A DNA stretch of 64,000 nt from an uncultured Methanosarcinales archaeon (lineage in GTDB: Archaea; Nanobdellota; Nanobdellia; Woesearchaeales; UBA11576), in the NCBI GenBank assembly GCA_964563755.1, contig CAZLYC010000001.1, positions 203,548-267,547 on the forward strand. Direction: 5' to 3'. The notes under the pieces are model-generated. The model did no database searches and was not told the DNA's origin. It worked only from the letters and a program-made list of their open reading frames with translations. Shown here in pieces: positions 14,174 through 27,125 of this stretch. A program made the translations under genes and the position numbers. The stretch's first letter is position 1, and the number at the start of each line of letters is the position of its first letter.

Positions 14174-14983
14174 ATGACAAAGGAAACAAGCCCAAAACCA
14201 GCGTCTGACGAGAAAGCAATCGTTCCGGAAATCGAGGAGCAGAAGCACCTCATAACACCGGTAGAAGAGGAAGAGATAGCATCATTAAAGGCCAAGCCCA
14301 CAGTAGACATAACTGCATGGAAGCCAAAGACGGCGCTCGGGAAGAAAGTCAAGTCAGGATCAGTATCAAACATAGACAGCATACTCAATAGCGAACAGAG
14401 CATACTCGAAGTAGAGATAGTAGATGCGCTGTTGCCATCACTCGAATCAGACCTGCTCCTCGTAGGACAGTCAAAAGGAAAGTTCGGCGGAGGACAGCGA
14501 AGGGTATTCAAGCAGACACAGAAGAAGACCAAGGAAGGCAACAAGCCAAGTTTCGCAACATTCGCAATCGTCGGAGACAAGGACGGCCACGTAGGCATGG
14601 GATACGGAAAAGCAAGAGAGACAGTCCCTGCAAGAGAGAAGGCAGTCAGGAAAGCCAAGCTCAACATAATCAAGATAAGACGCGGATGCGGCTCATGGCA
14701 GTGCAACTGCAAGGAACCACACTCGATACCATTCACAGTCGAAGGAAAATGCGGCTCAATAAAAGTCAGGCTGATGCCCGCACCTAAAGGAACAGGACTC
14801 TGCGCAGCAGGGGAAATCGCAAAGATACTCAAGATTGCAGGCATAAAGGACGTCTGGTCAAAGCCATTCGGCAACACGACATCAAGGATAAACCTGACAC
14901 TCGCAGTGTTCGACGCACTAAAAAAGCTCATGACAATGAAAGTCCAGGAGAAATACAAGCAGGTATTGAACCTCTCAGAATAA
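14174..14983 (+). CDS. rps5: 30S ribosomal protein uS5, with an N-terminal extension
   Basis: S5 dsRBD and C-terminal domain. An extra acidic leader of about 60 aa precedes them. Confidence 0.9.
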   Translation: MTKETSPKPASDEKAIVPEIEEQKHLITPVEEEEIASLKAKPTVDITAWKPKTALGKKVKSGSVSNIDSILNSEQSILEVEIVDALLPSLESDLLLVGQSKGKFGGGQRRVFKQTQKKTKEGNKPSFATFAIVGDKDGHVGMGYGKARETVPAREKAVRKAKLNIIKIRRGCGSWQCNCKEPHSIPFTVEGKCGSIKVRLMPAPKGTGLCAAGEIAKILKIAGIKDVWSKPFGNTTSRINLTLAVFDALKKLMTMKVQEKYKQVLNLSE

Positions 14984-18132: not shown

Positions 18133-19161
18133 ATGAGCGAGACAAAAAAGCTCATAGAACAAGCACATGAGATTTTCAGGAAGAACCAAAAGCCAGAAGG
18201 CTGGTTCGGGAGATGCATATTCCTAAGCTGGTACTGCGACCTCGGCACATGCGACTTCTGCTTCCGCTCGACTATAAGACACAAGGCAAGATACGCGAAG
18301 ACCGCCAAAAGAGAGCTTTCAGCAATACTTGCGGAAGCGCTGATAAGCAAGAACCTCGGCTGGAGAATCGAATTCCTCACAGGAGGCTACAGGATATTCT
18401 CGTTTAACGAGATGCTTGACATAACAAAGAAGATACACCAGATATACGAACAGAAGCTCTGGATAAACCTCGGCACAATTGAAAGGGAGAAACTTCTTGA
18501 GATGAAACCCTTTGTCGAAGGAGTATGCGCATCAATTGAAACAATAAATCCGGAACTTCATGACAGGATATGCCCTGACAAGCCGATAGAGCCATATTCA
18601 AAGATGCTTTTTCTTGCTAAAGAGCTCGGATTCAAGACGAGCATGACAATCGTGATAGGTCTTGGTGAAAAACAAGAGGACTTTCCTCTACTTGAACGGT
18701 TTATAGATGAACATAAGCTTGATAGGATAACATTCTACGCACTAAAGCCAGTCAAAGGCACAAGATACACAAAAAGCCCTGAGGCCGATGATTATGCCTG
18801 GTGGATAGCTAAGACAAGGATAAGATTCCCTAACATTGAGATAATCGCAGGCCTGACACCAAAAAAGGGCGAAGAGTACGCAGGACTGATACTTAAAGCA
18901 GGAGCGAACGCAATAACAAAATTCCCGATAGTCAAGAAATTCAACTCAAGACAAGCACAAGAGATAGAACGACAGGCAAAATCCGATAGGGAGTTCAAAG
19001 GAACACTGACAAAAATGCCTGAGATAGACTGGAACAGCGAGATAGAGAAACTGCCTTTCGAGCAGGAGCTAAAGGCAGATATCAAGCAAAAGATCAGATG
19101 CATAGTCTCAAAGATGAAAGGCGAAAAGAACACGACAATCATCAGTGATGATTACGAATGA
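18133..19161 (+). CDS. Radical SAM-like TIM-barrel enzyme (non-canonical Cx4Cx2C)
   Basis: CDLGTCDFC cluster near the N-terminus. Partial beta/alpha barrel organisation with a BioB-like feel. Confidence 0.4.
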   Translation: MSETKKLIEQAHEIFRKNQKPEGWFGRCIFLSWYCDLGTCDFCFRSTIRHKARYAKTAKRELSAILAEALISKNLGWRIEFLTGGYRIFSFNEMLDITKKIHQIYEQKLWINLGTIEREKLLEMKPFVEGVCASIETINPELHDRICPDKPIEPYSKMLFLAKELGFKTSMTIVIGLGEKQEDFPLLERFIDEHKLDRITFYALKPVKGTRYTKSPEADDYAWWIAKTRIRFPNIEIIAGLTPKKGEEYAGLILKAGANAITKFPIVKKFNSRQAQEIERQAKSDREFKGTLTKMPEIDWNSEIEKLPFEQELKADIKQKIRCIVSKMKGEKNTTIISDDYE

Positions 19162-19174
19162 TACGAACGTTCCA

Positions 19175-19272
19175 ATGAATGCCGTGCTCGCACAGATTCT
19201 TTAATAATGAGTTGTTTGCCGAACTGCAGGGTAAACTGCTTTTTTATCACTTGCTCGCTAGACGTCATTCAT
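19175..19272. repeat. Copy 1 of a ~95-bp element with about 10-bp terminal inverted repeats (ATGAATGCCG...CGTCATTCAT)
   Basis: Shares three conserved boxes with 26322..26416 (atgccgYgctcgcacaga / ttgccSaactgca / tgctcgctagRcgKcat). The spacers between boxes are variable but equal in length. Confidence 0.55.
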
Positions 19273-19328
19273 TTTAAAGTAATGTACAAAATATTTAAAT
19301 AAGCCAGAGGCATATTGAGCCCTAAAAG

Positions 19329-20513
19329 ATGGTGCAAAAAAGAGAGAGACAGCAGACCCTGCCTGCCAATAACCTATTCGCGTTAGTAGCTGTGCTTCTA
19401 ATATTAAGCTCGCTGATTTCCAGCTATGCTACGTATGAACGCAATAGACAGATAACTGAGGAGATAAGCGGCAAGGCCTACACATACGCAGAAGCAAAGC
19501 TCTGCATAAACAAGCAGCCTACAATAAACAACACCTGCAACACATCAGCGACAACAGGCATAGGATATTATTGCGACCTTGAAGCATACGACCCTGACAA
19601 TGACACCATAACATTCTACGACAACACGACACTTTTCAACATAGATCCTAGTACAGGAGAGATAATATTCACGCCTTTACCGGCACATGAGGGCACACAT
19701 GACATACTGATAACCGCTAAGGACAACAAGAACTGCGTAAACTCAAACACAACTTACATCCTTCAGCTCATAATACCCATAACAGTGACTCCTCCAGCAG
19801 GTGGCGGAGGAGGTGGAGGAGGCGGTGGCGGAGGAATAGCACCAGAATGCGAGCCCCAATGGCAATGCACTCCTTGGAGCCTTTGCAAGCCCGACGGGAT
19901 AAGAGACAGGACATGCAAAAGCCTCAACAACTGCCCTGAAAACAAACCTTCAGAGAAAGATGAATGCATATATACATTGCTTCTCCCTCCGAAGATACCA
20001 AAAGCAAAAGAATTCTACCTATGCAACTTCGATGAACAGGACGAGTGCTTCGCAAACATAGGAACCAATGAAAACTGGGTCTACACACACAAGAAAACCG
20101 ACCATATACTCAACATCGCAAACATAGACGAAGAAGGATTCGACGCATCAATCGATAACGAAATATATTTCTCAGTACGCCTCCAAAGGATAAAAGGAAT
20201 TGATACTACAGGAGACGACATAAATGACTTCGAGTACATATTCCATAAGATAACAAACAACAGGGCAGATACGACAGTCAGGCTTGTCAAGCAGGTCGAG
20301 GTAATAATAGAAAGACCAGTATATATCGAAAGATGGCCGTACATACTGACACAGATTGTGATATTCATATACGACAACGCCTGCATGATAATGCTCATAG
20401 TCATGATAATGGCAGCATTACTAATCTACGGCTGGTTAATCGCGTTCATAGACAAGAAAAGAAAGGATAAACAGGAAGAAAAAGAGCGACTAGATAAGCT
20501 TCCTAAGCCTTGA
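19329..20513 (+). CDS. Membrane-anchored extracellular protein with a cadherin-like segment, a poly-Gly linker and a Cys-rich module
   Basis: N-terminal TM, a YDPDNDTITF...IDPSTGEI segment, a G12 run, CEPQWQCTPWSLC...C and a C-terminal TM. Confidence 0.5.
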   Translation: MVQKRERQQTLPANNLFALVAVLLILSSLISSYATYERNRQITEEISGKAYTYAEAKLCINKQPTINNTCNTSATTGIGYYCDLEAYDPDNDTITFYDNTTLFNIDPSTGEIIFTPLPAHEGTHDILITAKDNKNCVNSNTTYILQLIIPITVTPPAGGGGGGGGGGGGIAPECEPQWQCTPWSLCKPDGIRDRTCKSLNNCPENKPSEKDECIYTLLLPPKIPKAKEFYLCNFDEQDECFANIGTNENWVYTHKKTDHILNIANIDEEGFDASIDNEIYFSVRLQRIKGIDTTGDDINDFEYIFHKITNNRADTTVRLVKQVEVIIERPVYIERWPYILTQIVIFIYDNACMIMLIVMIMAALLIYGWLIAFIDKKRKDKQEEKERLDKLPKP

Positions 20514-25074: not shown

Positions 25075-25845
25075 TCATTTATCGTTCTTATTTCCTGATT
25101 CTTTCTTCAATTTGATTCTGCACATAGATTTCACGTCGTGTTCATGTTTCTTGCCCTTCATTGTCTTGACTATCGATCCGTCCTTGAGGAACTCAATCCT
25201 CTCAGCGTGTTCAGCGACATTTGAGTCGTGAGTGACAAGCACTATTGTCTTGCACTGCTCTTTATGCATCTTCTTTAGGAAATCCATTACGAGCATGCCT
25301 GTCTTTGAGTCTAGATTGCCTGTAGGCTCATCTGCAAGCAGCACTTCAGGGTCGTTCGCAAGAGACCTTGCTATAGCAACCCTCTGCTGCTGGCCTCCTG
25401 AAAGCTCATTCGGCTTGTGGTTCATCCTCTCGCCAAGTTCGACGAGCTTCAACAGATCTATTGCCTTCTTTTTTCTCTCTTGGGAAGAAATTCCCTGGAA
25501 AGTCATCGGCAGCATGACGTTCTCAAGCGCAGTCATGTTCGGAATAAGATTGAACTGCTGGAATATGAAACCTATCTTCTTCCCACGTATCTGGGCAAGG
25601 TCAGACTCTGAAAGCTTGGATATGTCTTTTCCGTCGAGGAAAATGCGTCCTTTTGTCGGAATGTCAAGGCAGCCTATCATGTTCATGGCTGTACTTTTTC
25701 CTGATCCTGATGGCCCCATCACTGCCACGAACTCACCTTTATTTATCTCAAGATTCAGGCCTCTTAATGCAGGTACTTCTACATCGCCCATCTTGTAAAT
25801 CTTCCAGACATCCTCTATTTTAATCACAGTTCCTGTCTTTGCCAT
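25075..25845 (-). CDS. ABC transporter ATP-binding protein (MacB/LolD-like)
   Basis: Walker [10 protein letters not shown], signature [15 protein letters not shown], Walker [12 protein letters not shown]. Confidence 0.9.
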
Positions 25846-25846
25846 A

Positions 25847-26218
25847 TCATCTCACTCTTGTTTTCTTCTCCTTGCATAATTGGTTCAGCATCTCGATGCA
25901 TTCTGATTCAGAATTGCCTGTCATTGTGCAGAACACATCAATAGATGACTTTATGTTGCCAAGCAGCAAATTTTTCTGCTTCATGAAATCATCAACAGAC
26001 CTTTTACCCTGCTCTGTTATTGAGTATTTCTTTGCCCTTCCTTCCTCTTTAACAGAAATCTGGGACTTGTTCTTCAGTTCCTCAAGAAGAGGGTACATCG
26101 AGCCAGGGCTCGGCTTGCTGCCTGTCTTCTCTTTTATGGACTTCATTAGCTCGTAGCCTGACATCTCTTTAGAGTTCACAAGCTTCAGAACGAGCAGCTT
26201 AAGGTTCCCTGTAAACAT
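25847..26218 (-). CDS. PadR-family transcriptional regulator
   Basis: Winged HTH (LKLLVLKLV...MSGYELMK...GSMYPLLEELK). Confidence 0.8.
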   Translation of the reverse strand: MFTGNLKLLVLKLVNSKEMSGYELMKSIKEKTGSKPSPGSMYPLLEELKNKSQISVKEEGRAKKYSITEQGKRSVDDFMKQKNLLLGNIKSSIDVFCTMTGNSESECIEMLNQLCKEKKTRVR

Positions 26219-26321
26219 CAGACGCCTCCACCAGCACCACTATATCTATTCCGATATATCGGTTACGATACTGATATTTAAAGGTTATGTTTGGCAATGA
26301 AATTCAAACTAAACTTAATTT

Positions 26322-26416
26322 GTGATGCCGCGCTCGCACAGACCAATTCATGGTCTATTTTTGCCCAACTGCATCATTATAAGAAATAGTATTGGATGCT
26401 CGCTAGGCGGCATCAC
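26322..26416. repeat. Copy 2 of the ~95-bp element, with perfect 10-bp terminal inverted repeats GTGATGCCGC...GCGGCATCAC
   Basis: Conserved boxes align with 19175..19272. Lies in the divergent promoter region between PadR and a membrane-protein gene. Confidence 0.55.
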
Positions 26417-26468
26417 TGTGCTTATTGTGTTTATTTATGCTTATATTCAATATTCACAAATAATATAA

Positions 26469-27125
26469 ATGAAGCCTTTTCTCGACTATAGTATGTCAAG
26501 GATAAAACACCACAGGATAAGCGCTCAGATAAGGGATAAAGCGCCTGAAAAGAAAGGGATATCCAAGCAGGCGATATGGACAATCATACTGGGTTCTACA
26601 ATGGTATTCAGCATATTCGGCATAATGTTCAGCGGATATGACTCAGGAAGACAGCAGATCAAATATAATGATTACGAATTCCAGCAGACCACAACAGGAT
26701 GGAGTACAGAGATAGACGACAAGATGATTGAGTTCAACTACCTACCGCAGGAATTAGAAAGCATCCAGATAAGCTCTGAACCTGCCAATATACTCAAGGA
26801 ATCTAAGGTACTATACATCACATTCAACCCTAACAACAAGAGCGTACAGCAGTTTGAGCTCGCAAGACTACAGCTGGGACTGACGCTTTCAGAAAGCTTC
26901 CAGATATACACAATGCCTGGCATAACTGAACCAAGCGAATTGTACCAGCAACCGATAGTTGACTGCAACAACGCAACACAATCGTTGCCAATACTGAAGT
27001 TTGTAGAATCCAACGAGACAAAAGCATATCTAGAGGATAGTTGCATAATTATAGAAGCAGACAAGACCACTGCACTCGCGGTGAAAGACAAGATACTCTA
27101 CCAGATGCTCGGCATACTGGACTAA
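26469..27125 (+). CDS. Membrane-anchored hypothetical protein (paralogue A)
   Basis: N-terminal TM. The C-terminus ESNETKAYLEDSC...GILD is shared with the next gene. Confidence 0.5.
   Translation: MKPFLDYSMSRIKHHRISAQIRDKAPEKKGISKQAIWTIILGSTMVFSIFGIMFSGYDSGRQQIKYNDYEFQQTTTGWSTEIDDKMIEFNYLPQELESIQISSEPANILKESKVLYITFNPNNKSVQQFELARLQLGLTLSESFQIYTMPGITEPSELYQQPIVDCNNATQSLPILKFVESNETKAYLEDSCIIIEADKTTALAVKDKILYQMLGILD

What the first reader, a model, noticed from the sequence alone, without database searches (positions are those of the whole stretch)
19175..19272. Duplicated ~95-bp element with 10-bp terminal inverted repeats and three conserved boxes (second copy at 26322..26416), both upstream of membrane-protein genes
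Copy 2 has perfect inverted repeats GTGATGCCGC / GCGGCATCAC. Copy 1 has ATGAATGCCG / CGtCATTCAT. Internally, the boxes atgccgYgctcgcacaga, ttgccSaactgca and tgctcgctagRcgKcat are conserved. The two spacers differ in sequence but not in length (about 19 and 23 nt). Conserved boxes with variable equal-length spacers are typical of a structured ncRNA or a MITE-like mobile element. Both copies lie 50 to 60 bp upstream of plus-strand genes for TM proteins (19329 and 26469).
Basis: seen in the sequence. Interest (0 to 1): 0.6.

Follow-up and report, generated by a model that had tools for sequence, protein, structure and literature searches.

The report
Conserved stem-closed RNA-like element in Woesearchaeota
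The two ~95-base look-alike stretches are real members of a previously undescribed, evolutionarily conserved hairpin-closed noncoding element found only in a few tiny (DPANN) archaea; it is most likely a structured RNA that presents fixed sequence boxes to a partner, not a jumping gene, but its job is still unknown.

Summary
Copies at 19174-19273 and 26322-26416 share three boxes in the same order and spacing, closed by a 10-12 bp inverted repeat.

I found nine more copies on seven contigs, all from Woesearchaeota-type archaea. Some sit at the same gene-order positions as each window copy.

- **Closing stem (P1):** it changes sequence but keeps pairing. All 10 pairs show double changes, and 0 of 500 shuffles reach the observed values.
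- **Loop:** it stays 63-67 nt and pyrimidine-rich. The boxes are GCUCGCA, then CCSARY about 32 nt later, then GCUCGC about 66 nt later.
- **Known families:** there is no Rfam, tRNA, phage, plasmid or viral match.
- **Coding:** it is not coding.
- **MITE reading:** there is no target-site duplication, and the arms covary rather than being conserved. The same sites are occupied in relatives with 64-88% identical flanking proteins.
- **5'-UTR reading:** each downstream gene keeps its own conserved TATA box between the element and the start codon.

My best reading, at moderate confidence, is a new family of structured RNA on the + strand. The stem would display the boxes to a trans-acting partner. 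Rival readings are a terminator or insulator, a DNA-level site, a decayed MITE, or a riboswitch. Transcription, strand and function are untested.

The parts
19174..19273 (+). Copy 1 (w1), whole element
   Evidence: Read. R1 scores 89.1 bits, E 9e-18. R2 scores 81.1 bits.
19174..19185 (+). Copy 1, P1 5' arm AATGAATGCCGT
   Evidence: Pairs with 19262-19273 at 11 of 12 positions, with one C.U mismatch.
19186..19196 (+). Copy 1, box 1 core GCTCGCACAGA
   Evidence: GCTCGCA is invariant in all 11 copies.
19216..19228 (+). Copy 1, box 2 TTGCCGAACTGCA at the centre of the loop
19252..19261 (+). Copy 1, box 3 TGCTCGCTAG
19262..19273 (+). Copy 1, P1 3' arm ACGTCATTCATT
26322..26416 (+). Copy 2 (w2), whole element
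   Evidence: Read. R1 scores 92.1 bits, E 2e-18. MFE is -34.7 kcal/mol with z -3.8.
26322..26331 (+). Copy 2, P1 5' arm GTGATGCCGC
   Evidence: Perfect 10-bp complement of 26407-26416.
26332..26342 (+). Copy 2, box 1 core GCTCGCACAGA
26361..26373 (+). Copy 2, box 2 TTGCCCAACTGCA
26397..26406 (+). Copy 2, box 3 TGCTCGCTAG
26407..26416 (+). Copy 2, P1 3' arm GCGGCATCAC
19291..19303 (+). TATA-like box (atatttaaataag) of the gene at 19329, lying between copy 1 and the ATG
   Evidence: The same motif sits at the same distance from the ATG in L018, and a similar one in L017. That it is a promoter is inferred from archaeal promoter geometry, not measured.
26459..26469 (+). TATA-like box (aataatataaa) of the 210-aa gene, whose likely start is 26493
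   Evidence: Conserved in L017, L019, L020, L021 and L023, including loci without the element.
18133..19161 (+). Radical SAM gene, last gene of the ribosomal-protein/SecY/EMC3 string. Copy 1 starts 13 nt after its stop.
   Evidence: Pfam PF04055. Synteny.
19329..20513 (+). 394-aa protein with N- and C-terminal hydrophobic segments, downstream of copy 1
   Evidence: Orthologues in L012-L014, L017 and L021 give weak Big_9/He_PIG hits.
25847..26218 (-). PadR regulator, first gene of the divergent ABC/MacB operon. Copy 2 lies 104 nt upstream of its start.
   Evidence: Pfam PF03551.
26469..27125 (+). Membrane-anchored protein downstream of copy 2, probably 210 aa starting at 26493

Best explanation
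The two stretches belong to a previously undescribed family of conserved, vertically inherited noncoding elements in a clade of Woesearchaeota (DPANN archaea).

Anatomy. The parts shown directly are:
- A 10-16 bp closing helix (P1), 25 bp with an internal loop in one MAG, whose sequence drifts while pairing is kept.
- GCUCGCA directly inside the 5' arm.
- GCUCGC(U/A)(A/G/U)G 65-69 nt later, directly inside the 3' arm.
- A central CCSARY box (GCCCAACUGC in most copies) about 32 nt after the first box.
- A 63-67 nt pyrimidine-rich interior whose length is held constant while its sequence drifts.

Proposed mechanism (inferred, not shown). The element acts as RNA made from the + strand, the strand of the downstream gene. 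P1 holds the loop closed and protects the ends. The invariant boxes are contact points for a trans-acting partner, most probably a protein, so the product is a small ribonucleoprotein of about 95-105 nt.

No copy has a dedicated promoter at a fixed distance, and about half of the copies start 13-48 nt after a co-directional stop codon. I therefore infer that the RNA is carved out of read-through or promoter-upstream transcripts, as archaeal C/D box sRNAs often are.
For: More copies and their sources:
- A genome scan found 4 further copies, all in Candidatus Woesearchaeota MAGs.
- Covariance-model searches of syntenic loci found L017a (E 0.0095), L017b (E 0.59), L018 (7e-15), L019 (7e-12) and L020 (3e-16).

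P1 pairing:
- All 10 pairs show changes on both sides.
- 84% of cells in the full three-helix model are paired, against 67% in shuffles (P1 alone: 89%). 0 of 500 shuffles reach the observed pairing or covariation.
- Slid controls give 32-50% pairing.
- RNAalifold keeps P1 plus the small CUCGC/GCUAG extension as the consensus.
- Stems of 9-19 bp flank every true copy, against 3-7 bp at chance pattern hits.

Vertical inheritance:
- Copy 1 is matched by L018 and L017a, between the radical SAM gene and the roughly 390-aa gene.
- Copy 2 is matched by L020 and L019, upstream of the 210-aa gene.

Constraint pattern:
- Boxes are 74-100% identical between main-type copies (47-65% in comparisons with the divergent L017 copies), while spacer 2 falls to 9-39%.
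- Loop length stays at 63-67 nt.
- Boxes are more alike between the two copies of one genome (w1/w2 0.97, L001/L004 1.00) than between orthologues (0.74-0.88). This fits a co-evolving partner or gene conversion.

Strand:
- In the modelled helices the + strand has 16 G.U pairs against 5 A.C.
- P2 has compensatory variants in L017a, L017b and L018, with 74.5% pairing and 11-14 of 500 shuffles reaching it.
- Every copy whose downstream gene is known points the same way as that gene, except L017b.

Not coding: there is a 1-nt indel between boxes, the frame differs, and stops are present.

No known family matches.
Against: - There is no transcript evidence of any kind, so the strand and even the existence of an RNA product are inferred.
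- No promoter sits at a constant distance upstream of P1.
- Four copies carry T5-T7 runs inside the element on the + strand (w1 T6, w2 T5, L001 T6, L004 T7). Sense-strand T6+ runs are rare in this genome's genes: 2 in 29 kb against 29 A-runs. An archaeal RNA polymerase might therefore terminate inside the element.
- Apart from P1, the interior has no convincing consensus structure.
- The A7 alignment was fitted to the model, which favours the model's pairs.
- There are only 11 copies from a narrow clade. L017b is a borderline hit accepted on architecture.
- No candidate partner protein was identified.
Confidence: 0.45

Rival explanations
1. Transcript-end element (terminator or insulator). The element sits between transcription units. 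On the + strand it combines a strong stem with U-rich tracts and boxes recognised by a termination or 3'-processing factor such as the KH-domain factor aCPSF1/FttA. It would stop read-through from the upstream unit before the next promoter.
For: - Six of 11 copies begin 13-48 nt after the stop codon of a co-directional gene: w1, L018, L017a, L017b, L002 and L020.
- Every copy except L017b lies upstream of the next gene's own TATA box.
- The loop is U-rich (31-46% U), with T5-T7 runs in four copies.
- T6+ runs are otherwise avoided on sense strands.
Against: - Five copies (w2, L019, L001, L003, L004) follow a divergent gene, so there is nothing upstream to terminate.
- The T-runs are at different places in the loop and are absent from seven copies.
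- Ordinary gene ends in the window use plain T-runs without this element.
- The invariant boxes and the fixed 64-nt loop are not explained.
Confidence: 0.15
2. DNA-level site. The boxes (two direct GCTCGC repeats 65-69 bp apart plus a central box at about 3 helical turns) are bound on duplex DNA by a regulator or architectural protein upstream of the core promoters. The inverted repeat would be part of that site or extrude as a cruciform.
For: - The position is upstream of conserved TATA boxes of the downstream genes, by 21-46 bp.
- Box spacing is fixed although the spacer sequence drifts.
- Box signatures are genome-specific.
- No dedicated promoter or terminator was found for an RNA.
Against: - The arms keep complementarity through double changes while their sequence is free. 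This is the signature of intrastrand pairing, not of protein recognition of duplex DNA.
- The G.U over A.C asymmetry is 16 to 5.
- L017b lies between two convergent gene ends, where no promoter is served.
Confidence: 0.15
3. Decayed or domesticated MITE-like or palindromic repeat element. A small non-autonomous mobile element with terminal inverted repeats spread to several intergenic sites and is now decaying or has been exapted.
For: - It has inverted termini, a size of about 95 bp, intergenic sites and several copies per genome.
- Presence is patchy among relatives. It is absent from the copy-2 site in L017 and L021, and from the copy-1 site in L011-L015 and L019.
- Half-element duplications lie next to both copies in MAG bin.595.
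Against: - Flanks show no target-site duplication.
- Terminal repeats differ between copies and covary, so a transposase could not recognise a common end.
- Spacers are diverged even between copies in one genome, while the boxes are fixed.
- Only 2 copies occur in 64 kb.
- No transposase is nearby.
- The same sites are occupied across relatives at 64-88% protein identity.
- Nothing similar was found in viral, phage or plasmid collections.
Confidence: 0.1
4. Cis-regulatory leader (riboswitch or protein-binding leader) controlling the co-directional downstream gene. Conserved junction nucleotides would form a ligand pocket, and U-runs would act as attenuators.
For: - Boxes are conserved at the base and centre of a stem-closed fold, with variable stems.
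- Orientation matches the downstream gene in all but one copy.
- Each site is inherited together with its downstream gene, even when the upstream gene differs (w2 versus L020).
- Duplicated half-arms in L001 and L004 could form alternative helices.
Against: - The downstream genes have their own conserved TATA box 24-38 nt before the ATG, between the element and the gene. It is also present in relatives lacking the element.
- Downstream genes have no common function: an Ig-like surface protein, a 210-aa membrane protein, a PepSY-like protein and a cupin.
- L017b has no downstream gene on its strand.
- The interior is largely unstructured.
Confidence: 0.07

Closest known systems
Archaeal C/D box sRNAs
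   Same: Both are small RNAs with a terminal stem, short invariant boxes, and variable spacers of fixed length between them. Both have several divergent paralogues per genome. Both are often encoded without a promoter of their own, next to or just after protein genes (the last point is from my own knowledge of the literature on archaeal C/D sRNA biogenesis).
   Different: There is no C box (RUGAUGA) or D box (CUGA) and no k-turn signature. Rfam C/D models give only chance-level partial hits. The element is longer (95-107 versus 50-70 nt). Spacers are not conserved between orthologues, and no targets were found in the window.
Orphan structured RNA motifs found by comparative genomics (CMfinder/Breaker-lab type motifs, as collected in Rfam)
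   Same: It is an intergenic, lineage-restricted motif. It is defined by a covarying helix plus invariant unpaired nucleotides, and its function is unknown.
   Different: It matches none of the 4227 Rfam 15 families. The host clade is DPANN archaea, for which I found no described lineage-specific RNA motif.
Bacterial small palindromic intergenic repeats / MITEs (Correia, ERIC, BOX, RUP, REP)
   Same: Both are about 100 bp with inverted termini. Both lie between genes and may be co-transcribed and fold as RNA.
   Different: Those families have tens to hundreds of near-identical copies, conserved termini and often target duplications. Here there are 2 copies per stretch, covarying termini, diverged interiors and conserved orthologous sites.
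Riboswitch aptamers
   Same: Both have invariant nucleotides framed by covarying helices, lie upstream of and co-oriented with genes, and occur in several copies per genome.
   Different: A conserved promoter lies between the element and the gene. The downstream gene set is not coherent. The interior lacks a well-defined multi-helix fold.

Membership tests
MITE / non-autonomous transposon | Terminal inverted repeats of conserved sequence shared by all copies (the transposase recognition site) | tested here: not met
   The outer arm sequence differs in every copy, with P1 identity of 0.35-0.9, and it is kept complementary by double changes.
MITE / non-autonomous transposon | Target-site duplication flanking the element | tested here: not met
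   The flanks are cgttcc|...|ttaaag (w1) and cttaattt|...|tgtgctta (w2), with no direct repeat.
MITE / non-autonomous transposon | Copies near-identical along their whole length, and sites not shared with distant relatives | tested here: not met
   w1/w2 spacers are 30-37% identical while boxes are 97% identical. Both sites are occupied in relatives with 64-88% identical flanking proteins.
Riboswitch / 5' leader | Lies within the 5' UTR of the regulated gene | tested here: inconclusive
   A conserved TATA-like box lies between the element and the ATG, and persists where the element is absent. This argues against the feature, but no TSS data exist.
Riboswitch / 5' leader | Downstream genes form a functionally coherent set | tested here: not met
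   The downstream genes are an Ig-like surface protein, a 210-aa membrane protein, a PepSY-like protein and a cupin. One copy lies between convergent genes.
C/D box sRNA | C (RUGAUGA) and D (CUGA) boxes forming a k-turn next to the terminal stem | tested here: not met
   The boxes are absent from the alignment. Rfam C/D models reach only 9.7-12.9 bits, against gathering scores of 36-70.
H/ACA sRNA | ACA box directly 3' of the lower stem, plus a k-turn or k-loop in the upper stem | tested here: not met
   No ACA follows the 3' arm at a fixed position in any copy.
tRNA, 5S rRNA and other known RNA families | Match to the family covariance model or to a tRNA detector | tested here: not met
   ARAGORN finds 0 genes. 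Rfam 15 gives no hit at gathering score in the window or L001-L004, and nothing relevant at E<=10 on either copy.
Structured noncoding RNA (generic) | Base pairs maintained by compensatory substitutions | tested here: met
   In P1, all 10 pairs have double changes and 0 of 500 shuffles reach the observed values. Slid controls give 32-50% pairing, against 84% for the whole modelled structure (89% in P1). P2 is modest at 11-14 of 500.
Structured noncoding RNA (generic) | A discrete transcript of the element exists | not testable with these tools

The most novel reading that the evidence does not exclude
This may be the first lineage-specific ribonucleoprotein RNA of DPANN archaea. It would be a new class of small RNA whose closing stem and three invariant boxes dock a dedicated protein. 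Its two fixed-length, freely varying pyrimidine-rich spacers would act as guide or sensor segments, analogous in logic to C/D or bridge-type guide RNAs, or as a ligand- or protein-responsive switch acting on the adjacent promoter.
Probability: 0.12. Interest if true: 0.8.

Novelty: new member of a known kind. Interest (0 to 1): 0.55.

Why it matters
DPANN archaea have tiny genomes with little spare DNA, and almost nothing is known about their noncoding RNAs. This roughly 100-nt intergenic element has stayed at the same two loci while neighbouring proteins diverged to about 65% identity. Its stem is preserved by compensatory change, its boxes are invariant and its loop length is fixed. It is therefore almost certainly functional.

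It gives a concrete, testable candidate for a clade-specific RNA or RNP in organisms that cannot yet be cultured. The covariance model built here can be used to map it across complete Nanobdellota genomes and to look for a co-occurring protein partner. If it proves to be only a terminator or a relic repeat, the interest is modest.

Tried and rejected
- **Rfam.** I scanned at gathering score (window; L001-L004) and at E<=10 on both copies. Only chance partial hits appeared: miRNA, snoRNA, an S15 leader and atoC.
- **tRNA.** ARAGORN found none.
- **Resemblances recalled from memory.** Box 2 resembles 5S rRNA loop C (CCGAAC), and its reverse complement resembles a tRNA D-loop (CAGUUGGG). Neither is backed by any model hit, so I dropped both.
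- **Coding peptide.** An ATG-started ORF runs through w2. However, the frame differs between w1 and w2 because of a 1-nt indel between boxes, and L001 hits a stop after 9 codons. I rejected this reading.
- **Metagenome scan.** The scan for box 1 + box 3 gave 6 hits, all GC-rich, with no box 2 and stems of 3-7 bp. I treat them as chance matches.
- **Viral, phage and plasmid searches.** Two viral-contig scans and BLAST against phages and plasmids gave nothing, or E of about 0.9.
- **Guide hypothesis.** The longest matches of the four spacers elsewhere in the window are 10-11 nt, which is chance level.
- **Known RNA and DNA motifs.** I read the sequences for a k-turn, bulge-helix-bulge, H/ACA, C/D, integron attC (R boxes) and DGR TR/VR (A-specific differences). 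None fits.
- **Strand from folding energy.** The z-scores are inconsistent between strands and copies.
- **P1b and P3.** The P1b mini-helix (CUCGC/GCUAG) is only partly kept in L017a, L017b and L020. P3 is mostly the invariant GC/GC, so it is not informative.
- **L012 9734-9835(-).** R2 gives E 0.0028. Its boxes are mutually complementary (GCCCGC/GCGGGC) and the spacing differs, so I did not count it as a member.
- **Source contig.** It could not be retrieved.
- **Literature.** Searches for the box strings and for DPANN RNA motifs found nothing relevant.

Full report
**Observation.**
- Copy 1 spans 19174-19273. Its arms are AATGAATGCCGT and ACGTCATTCATT, with 11 of 12 positions paired.
- Copy 2 spans 26322-26416. 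Its arms GTGATGCCGC and GCGGCATCAC pair perfectly.
- The boxes ATGCCGYGCTCGCACAGA and TGCTCGCTAGRCGKCAT occur only in these two places in the window, even with 3 mismatches allowed. Shuffles give 0.06 and 0.27 expected matches.
- TTGCCSAACTGCA lies in register between them.
- Spacers are 19 versus 18 nt and 23 versus 23 nt.
- Two covariance models run without filters find no third copy in the 64 kb.

**Organism and context.** The window is archaeal and of Woesearchaeota type.
- The radical SAM protein at 18133-19161 has its best named relatives in Candidatus Woesearchaeota and Nanoarchaeota MAGs. The source is a 303-kb NCBI contig that I could not retrieve.
- Copy 1 lies 13 nt after the radical SAM stop, at the end of a ribosomal-protein/SecY/EMC3 gene string. 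It is 55 nt before a 394-aa surface-type protein gene.
- Copy 2 lies between a divergent PadR-ABC-MacB operon and a membrane-protein gene. Homologues put the likely start of that gene at 26493.

**More copies.**
- A scan of one genome per GTDB species with GCTCGCACAG...AACTGC...GCTCGCTAG returned four loci, all in Candidatus Woesearchaeota MAGs: L001 and L004 in one MAG, plus L002 and L003.
- A metagenome scan with boxes 1 and 3 returned only GC-rich chance hits, with no central box and no stem.
- I built model R1 from six copies. I then fetched loci syntenic with the window through homologues of the flanking proteins.
- Five more copies appeared:
  - L018 (E 7e-15) and L017a (E 0.0095) lie at the copy-1 site, between the radical SAM gene and the roughly 390-aa gene.
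  - L020 (3e-16) and L019 (7e-12) lie at the copy-2 site, upstream of the 210-aa gene.
  - L017b (E 0.59) lies between two convergent genes. I accepted it because it has the same architecture: a 16-bp stem and GCUCGCA twice, 66 nt apart.
- At the copy-2 site of L023 there is a perfect 11-bp inverted repeat, GGCAGTGCCGC/GCGGCACTGCC, around a 107-nt loop with GCUACGC and GCUUCGC. It is probably a diverged relative, but the model does not detect it.
- Several relatives lack the element at one or both sites.

**Anatomy.** The following holds in all 11 copies.
- A stem of 10-16 bp is present, extended to about 25 bp with an internal loop in L001 and L004.
- It directly flanks GCUCGCA on the 5' side and GCUCGC plus a 2-3 nt linker on the 3' side.
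- The two GCUCGC boxes are 65-69 nt apart.
- A central CCSARY box (GCCCAACUGC in most copies, CCGAGU/UCGAGU in L017) sits about 32 nt after the first box.
- The interior is 63-67 nt long in every copy and pyrimidine-rich, with U at 31-46%.

**Structure.**
- P1 is strongly supported. Every one of its 10 pairs shows changes on both sides. Across the three modelled helices 84% of cells are paired, against 67% in shuffles (89% in P1 alone). 0 of 500 shuffles reach the observed pairing, double-change or covariation values, and slid partners give 32-50%.
- RNAalifold on the 10-copy alignment keeps only P1 and a 4-pair extension, CUCGC/GCUAG.
- That extension is invariant in most copies and imperfect in L017b and L020, so it is untested rather than supported.
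- A 5-bp helix P2, from the ACAG of box 1 to the U-rich run before box 2, has compensatory variants in L017a, L017b and L018. Its statistics are modest: 74.5% paired, and 11-14 of 500 shuffles reach it.
- P3 is essentially two invariant G-C pairs.
- Single-sequence folds of the interior are not better than shuffles in several copies.

**Which strand.** Folding energies do not decide. Two points favour the + strand and one argues against it.
- In the modelled helices the + strand has 16 G.U pairs and 5 A.C pairs. On the other strand these counts would be reversed. This favours the + strand, with the caveat that the alignment was fitted to a + strand model.
- Orientation also follows the downstream gene in every copy with a known neighbour except L017b.
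- Against the + strand: w1, w2, L001 and L004 carry T5-T7 runs inside the element. Sense-strand T6+ runs are rare in this genome's genes, at 2 in 29 kb against 29 A6+ runs.

**What it is not.**
- It is not coding. The frame between boxes differs by one nucleotide between w1 and w2, and L001 hits a stop.
- It is not any Rfam 15 family or a tRNA.
- It is not in viral, phage or plasmid collections.
- It is not a typical MITE. There is no target duplication, and the arms covary instead of being conserved. The interiors are diverged (w1/w2 spacers 30-37% identical) while the boxes are fixed (97%). Both sites are shared with relatives whose flanking proteins are 64-88% identical.
- It is probably not a 5' leader.
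  - The roughly 390-aa gene keeps atatttaaataag, and the 210-aa gene keeps aataatataaa, 24-38 nt before the ATG. Both motifs lie between the element and the gene.
  - The second motif is also present in L017, L021 and L023, where the element is absent or unrecognisable.
  - That these motifs are promoters follows from standard archaeal promoter geometry and was not measured.

**Evolutionary pattern.**
- Boxes are more alike between the two copies of one genome (w1/w2 0.97, L001/L004 1.00, L018/L020 0.85) than between orthologues at one site (w1/L018 0.74, w2/L020 0.85).
- L018 and L020 share the derived box-1 variant GCUCGCAUUG and the derived P1 base C8 to U.
- This suggests either gene conversion between paralogues or co-evolution with a genome-specific trans-acting partner.
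- Spacer 2 drops to 9-39% identity between orthologues. Together with the lack of matches in the window, this argues against conserved guide targets.

**Most likely mechanism.** I judge a structured RNA made from the + strand to be the best reading.
- P1 closes and protects a 64-nt flexible loop.
- The three invariant boxes are contacts for a trans-acting partner, most probably a protein.
- The steps shown are conservation, stem covariation, fixed spacing, orthology of sites, and absence from known families.
- The steps inferred are transcription, strand, a protein partner, and biogenesis from read-through or promoter-upstream transcripts. No copy has a TATA box at a constant distance upstream, and six of 11 start 13-48 nt after a co-directional stop codon.
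- My confidence in this mechanism is about 0.45. My confidence that this is a real, selected structured element rather than chance or a recent repeat is much higher.

**Rivals.**
- A terminator or insulator role (0.15) fits the position and the U-richness. It does not fit the five copies that follow divergent genes, or the fixed boxes.
- A duplex-DNA site upstream of promoters (0.15) fits the position and fixed spacing. It does not fit the arm covariation or the copy between convergent genes.
- A decayed MITE (0.10) fits the patchy distribution and the half-arm duplications in one MAG, but fails the defining tests.
- A riboswitch-like leader (0.07) conflicts with the intervening promoters and the unrelated downstream genes.

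**Novelty and limits.**
- I found no description of this motif in Rfam or in full-text searches. I rate it a new family of a known kind, a lineage-specific structured noncoding element.
- The sample is small (11 copies, one clade). One member is borderline, and the alignment is model-fitted. All collection scans required exact boxes, so the true spread is probably underestimated.
- No expression data were available.

Noticed in passing
L004:1062-1093 and L001:3237-3267: In MAG bin.595 each copy has a second, diverged (81-84%) copy of one extended stem arm. In L004 the 5' arm is repeated 83 nt upstream, and in L001 the 3' arm is repeated 57 nt downstream. Each duplicate still complements the opposite arm over 10-13 nt, so mutually exclusive helices are possible. 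Alternatively, these may be relics of a tandem duplication.
   Followed up: partly
L012:9734-9835 (-): A roughly 100-nt hairpin-closed stretch lies in the 338-nt gap between the EMC3-like and radical SAM genes of a relative, on the opposite strand. It scores E 0.0028 with model R2. It has AACUG at its centre and a strong TATA-like box (cattttaaatg) about 20 nt upstream, but its two boxes are complementary (GCCCGC/GCGGGC) and the spacing differs. It may be a distant relative or an unrelated small RNA gene.
   Followed up: partly
L023:2150-2278: At the site orthologous to copy 2 there is a perfect 11-bp inverted repeat with the family's inner stem sequence (UGCCGC/GCGGCA). It encloses a 107-nt loop containing GCUACGC, GCUUCGC and a GC-rich hairpin. 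The models do not detect it. It is probably an expanded, diverged version.
   Followed up: partly
window 26236-26283: The palindrome CCGATATATCGG and the sequence around the TATA-like box upstream of the PadR gene are conserved in L017 and L023 (ccgatatattgg, ccgatatatcgg). This is likely the PadR operator and promoter.
   Followed up: no
window 26469-26493: The ORF downstream of copy 2 is listed from ATG 26469 (218 aa). The database protein of the same contig and all homologues have 210-217 aa, and L017, L019, L020, L021 and L023 begin at the equivalent of ATG 26493 (MSRIK/MTRIK). The true start is therefore probably 26493.
   Followed up: partly
window 19329-20513 (about residues 155-170): The 394-aa protein downstream of copy 1 contains an uninterrupted run of 12 glycines (PPAGGGGGGGGGGGGIAPE) between its two halves.
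   Followed up: no
L012:18868-21017: The ABC ATPase of the syntenic operon in a relative carries an intein with a LAGLIDADG homing endonuclease domain (PF14890, PF14528). The window's orthologue (25075-25845) has none.
   Followed up: no
L013:12904-13193 and 14591-14617: The long gap upstream of the roughly 385-aa gene in this relative holds at least three evenly spaced (about 131 nt) identical GC-rich 27-nt hairpin-like hits, with a fourth further on. This looks like a tandem repeat of unknown nature.
   Followed up: no
L021:9830-9950: At the copy-2 site of this relative, in place of the element, there is a G/T-rich degenerate repeat tract (ggtgtt, gggtgtt, gggcgtt ...).
   Followed up: no
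window 19161-19329 versus L011-L015, L019, L021: Most relatives carry a guanylate-cyclase-domain gene and a roughly 232-aa gene between the radical SAM gene and the roughly 390-aa gene. The window, L017 and L018 lack both and have the element there instead.
   Followed up: partly
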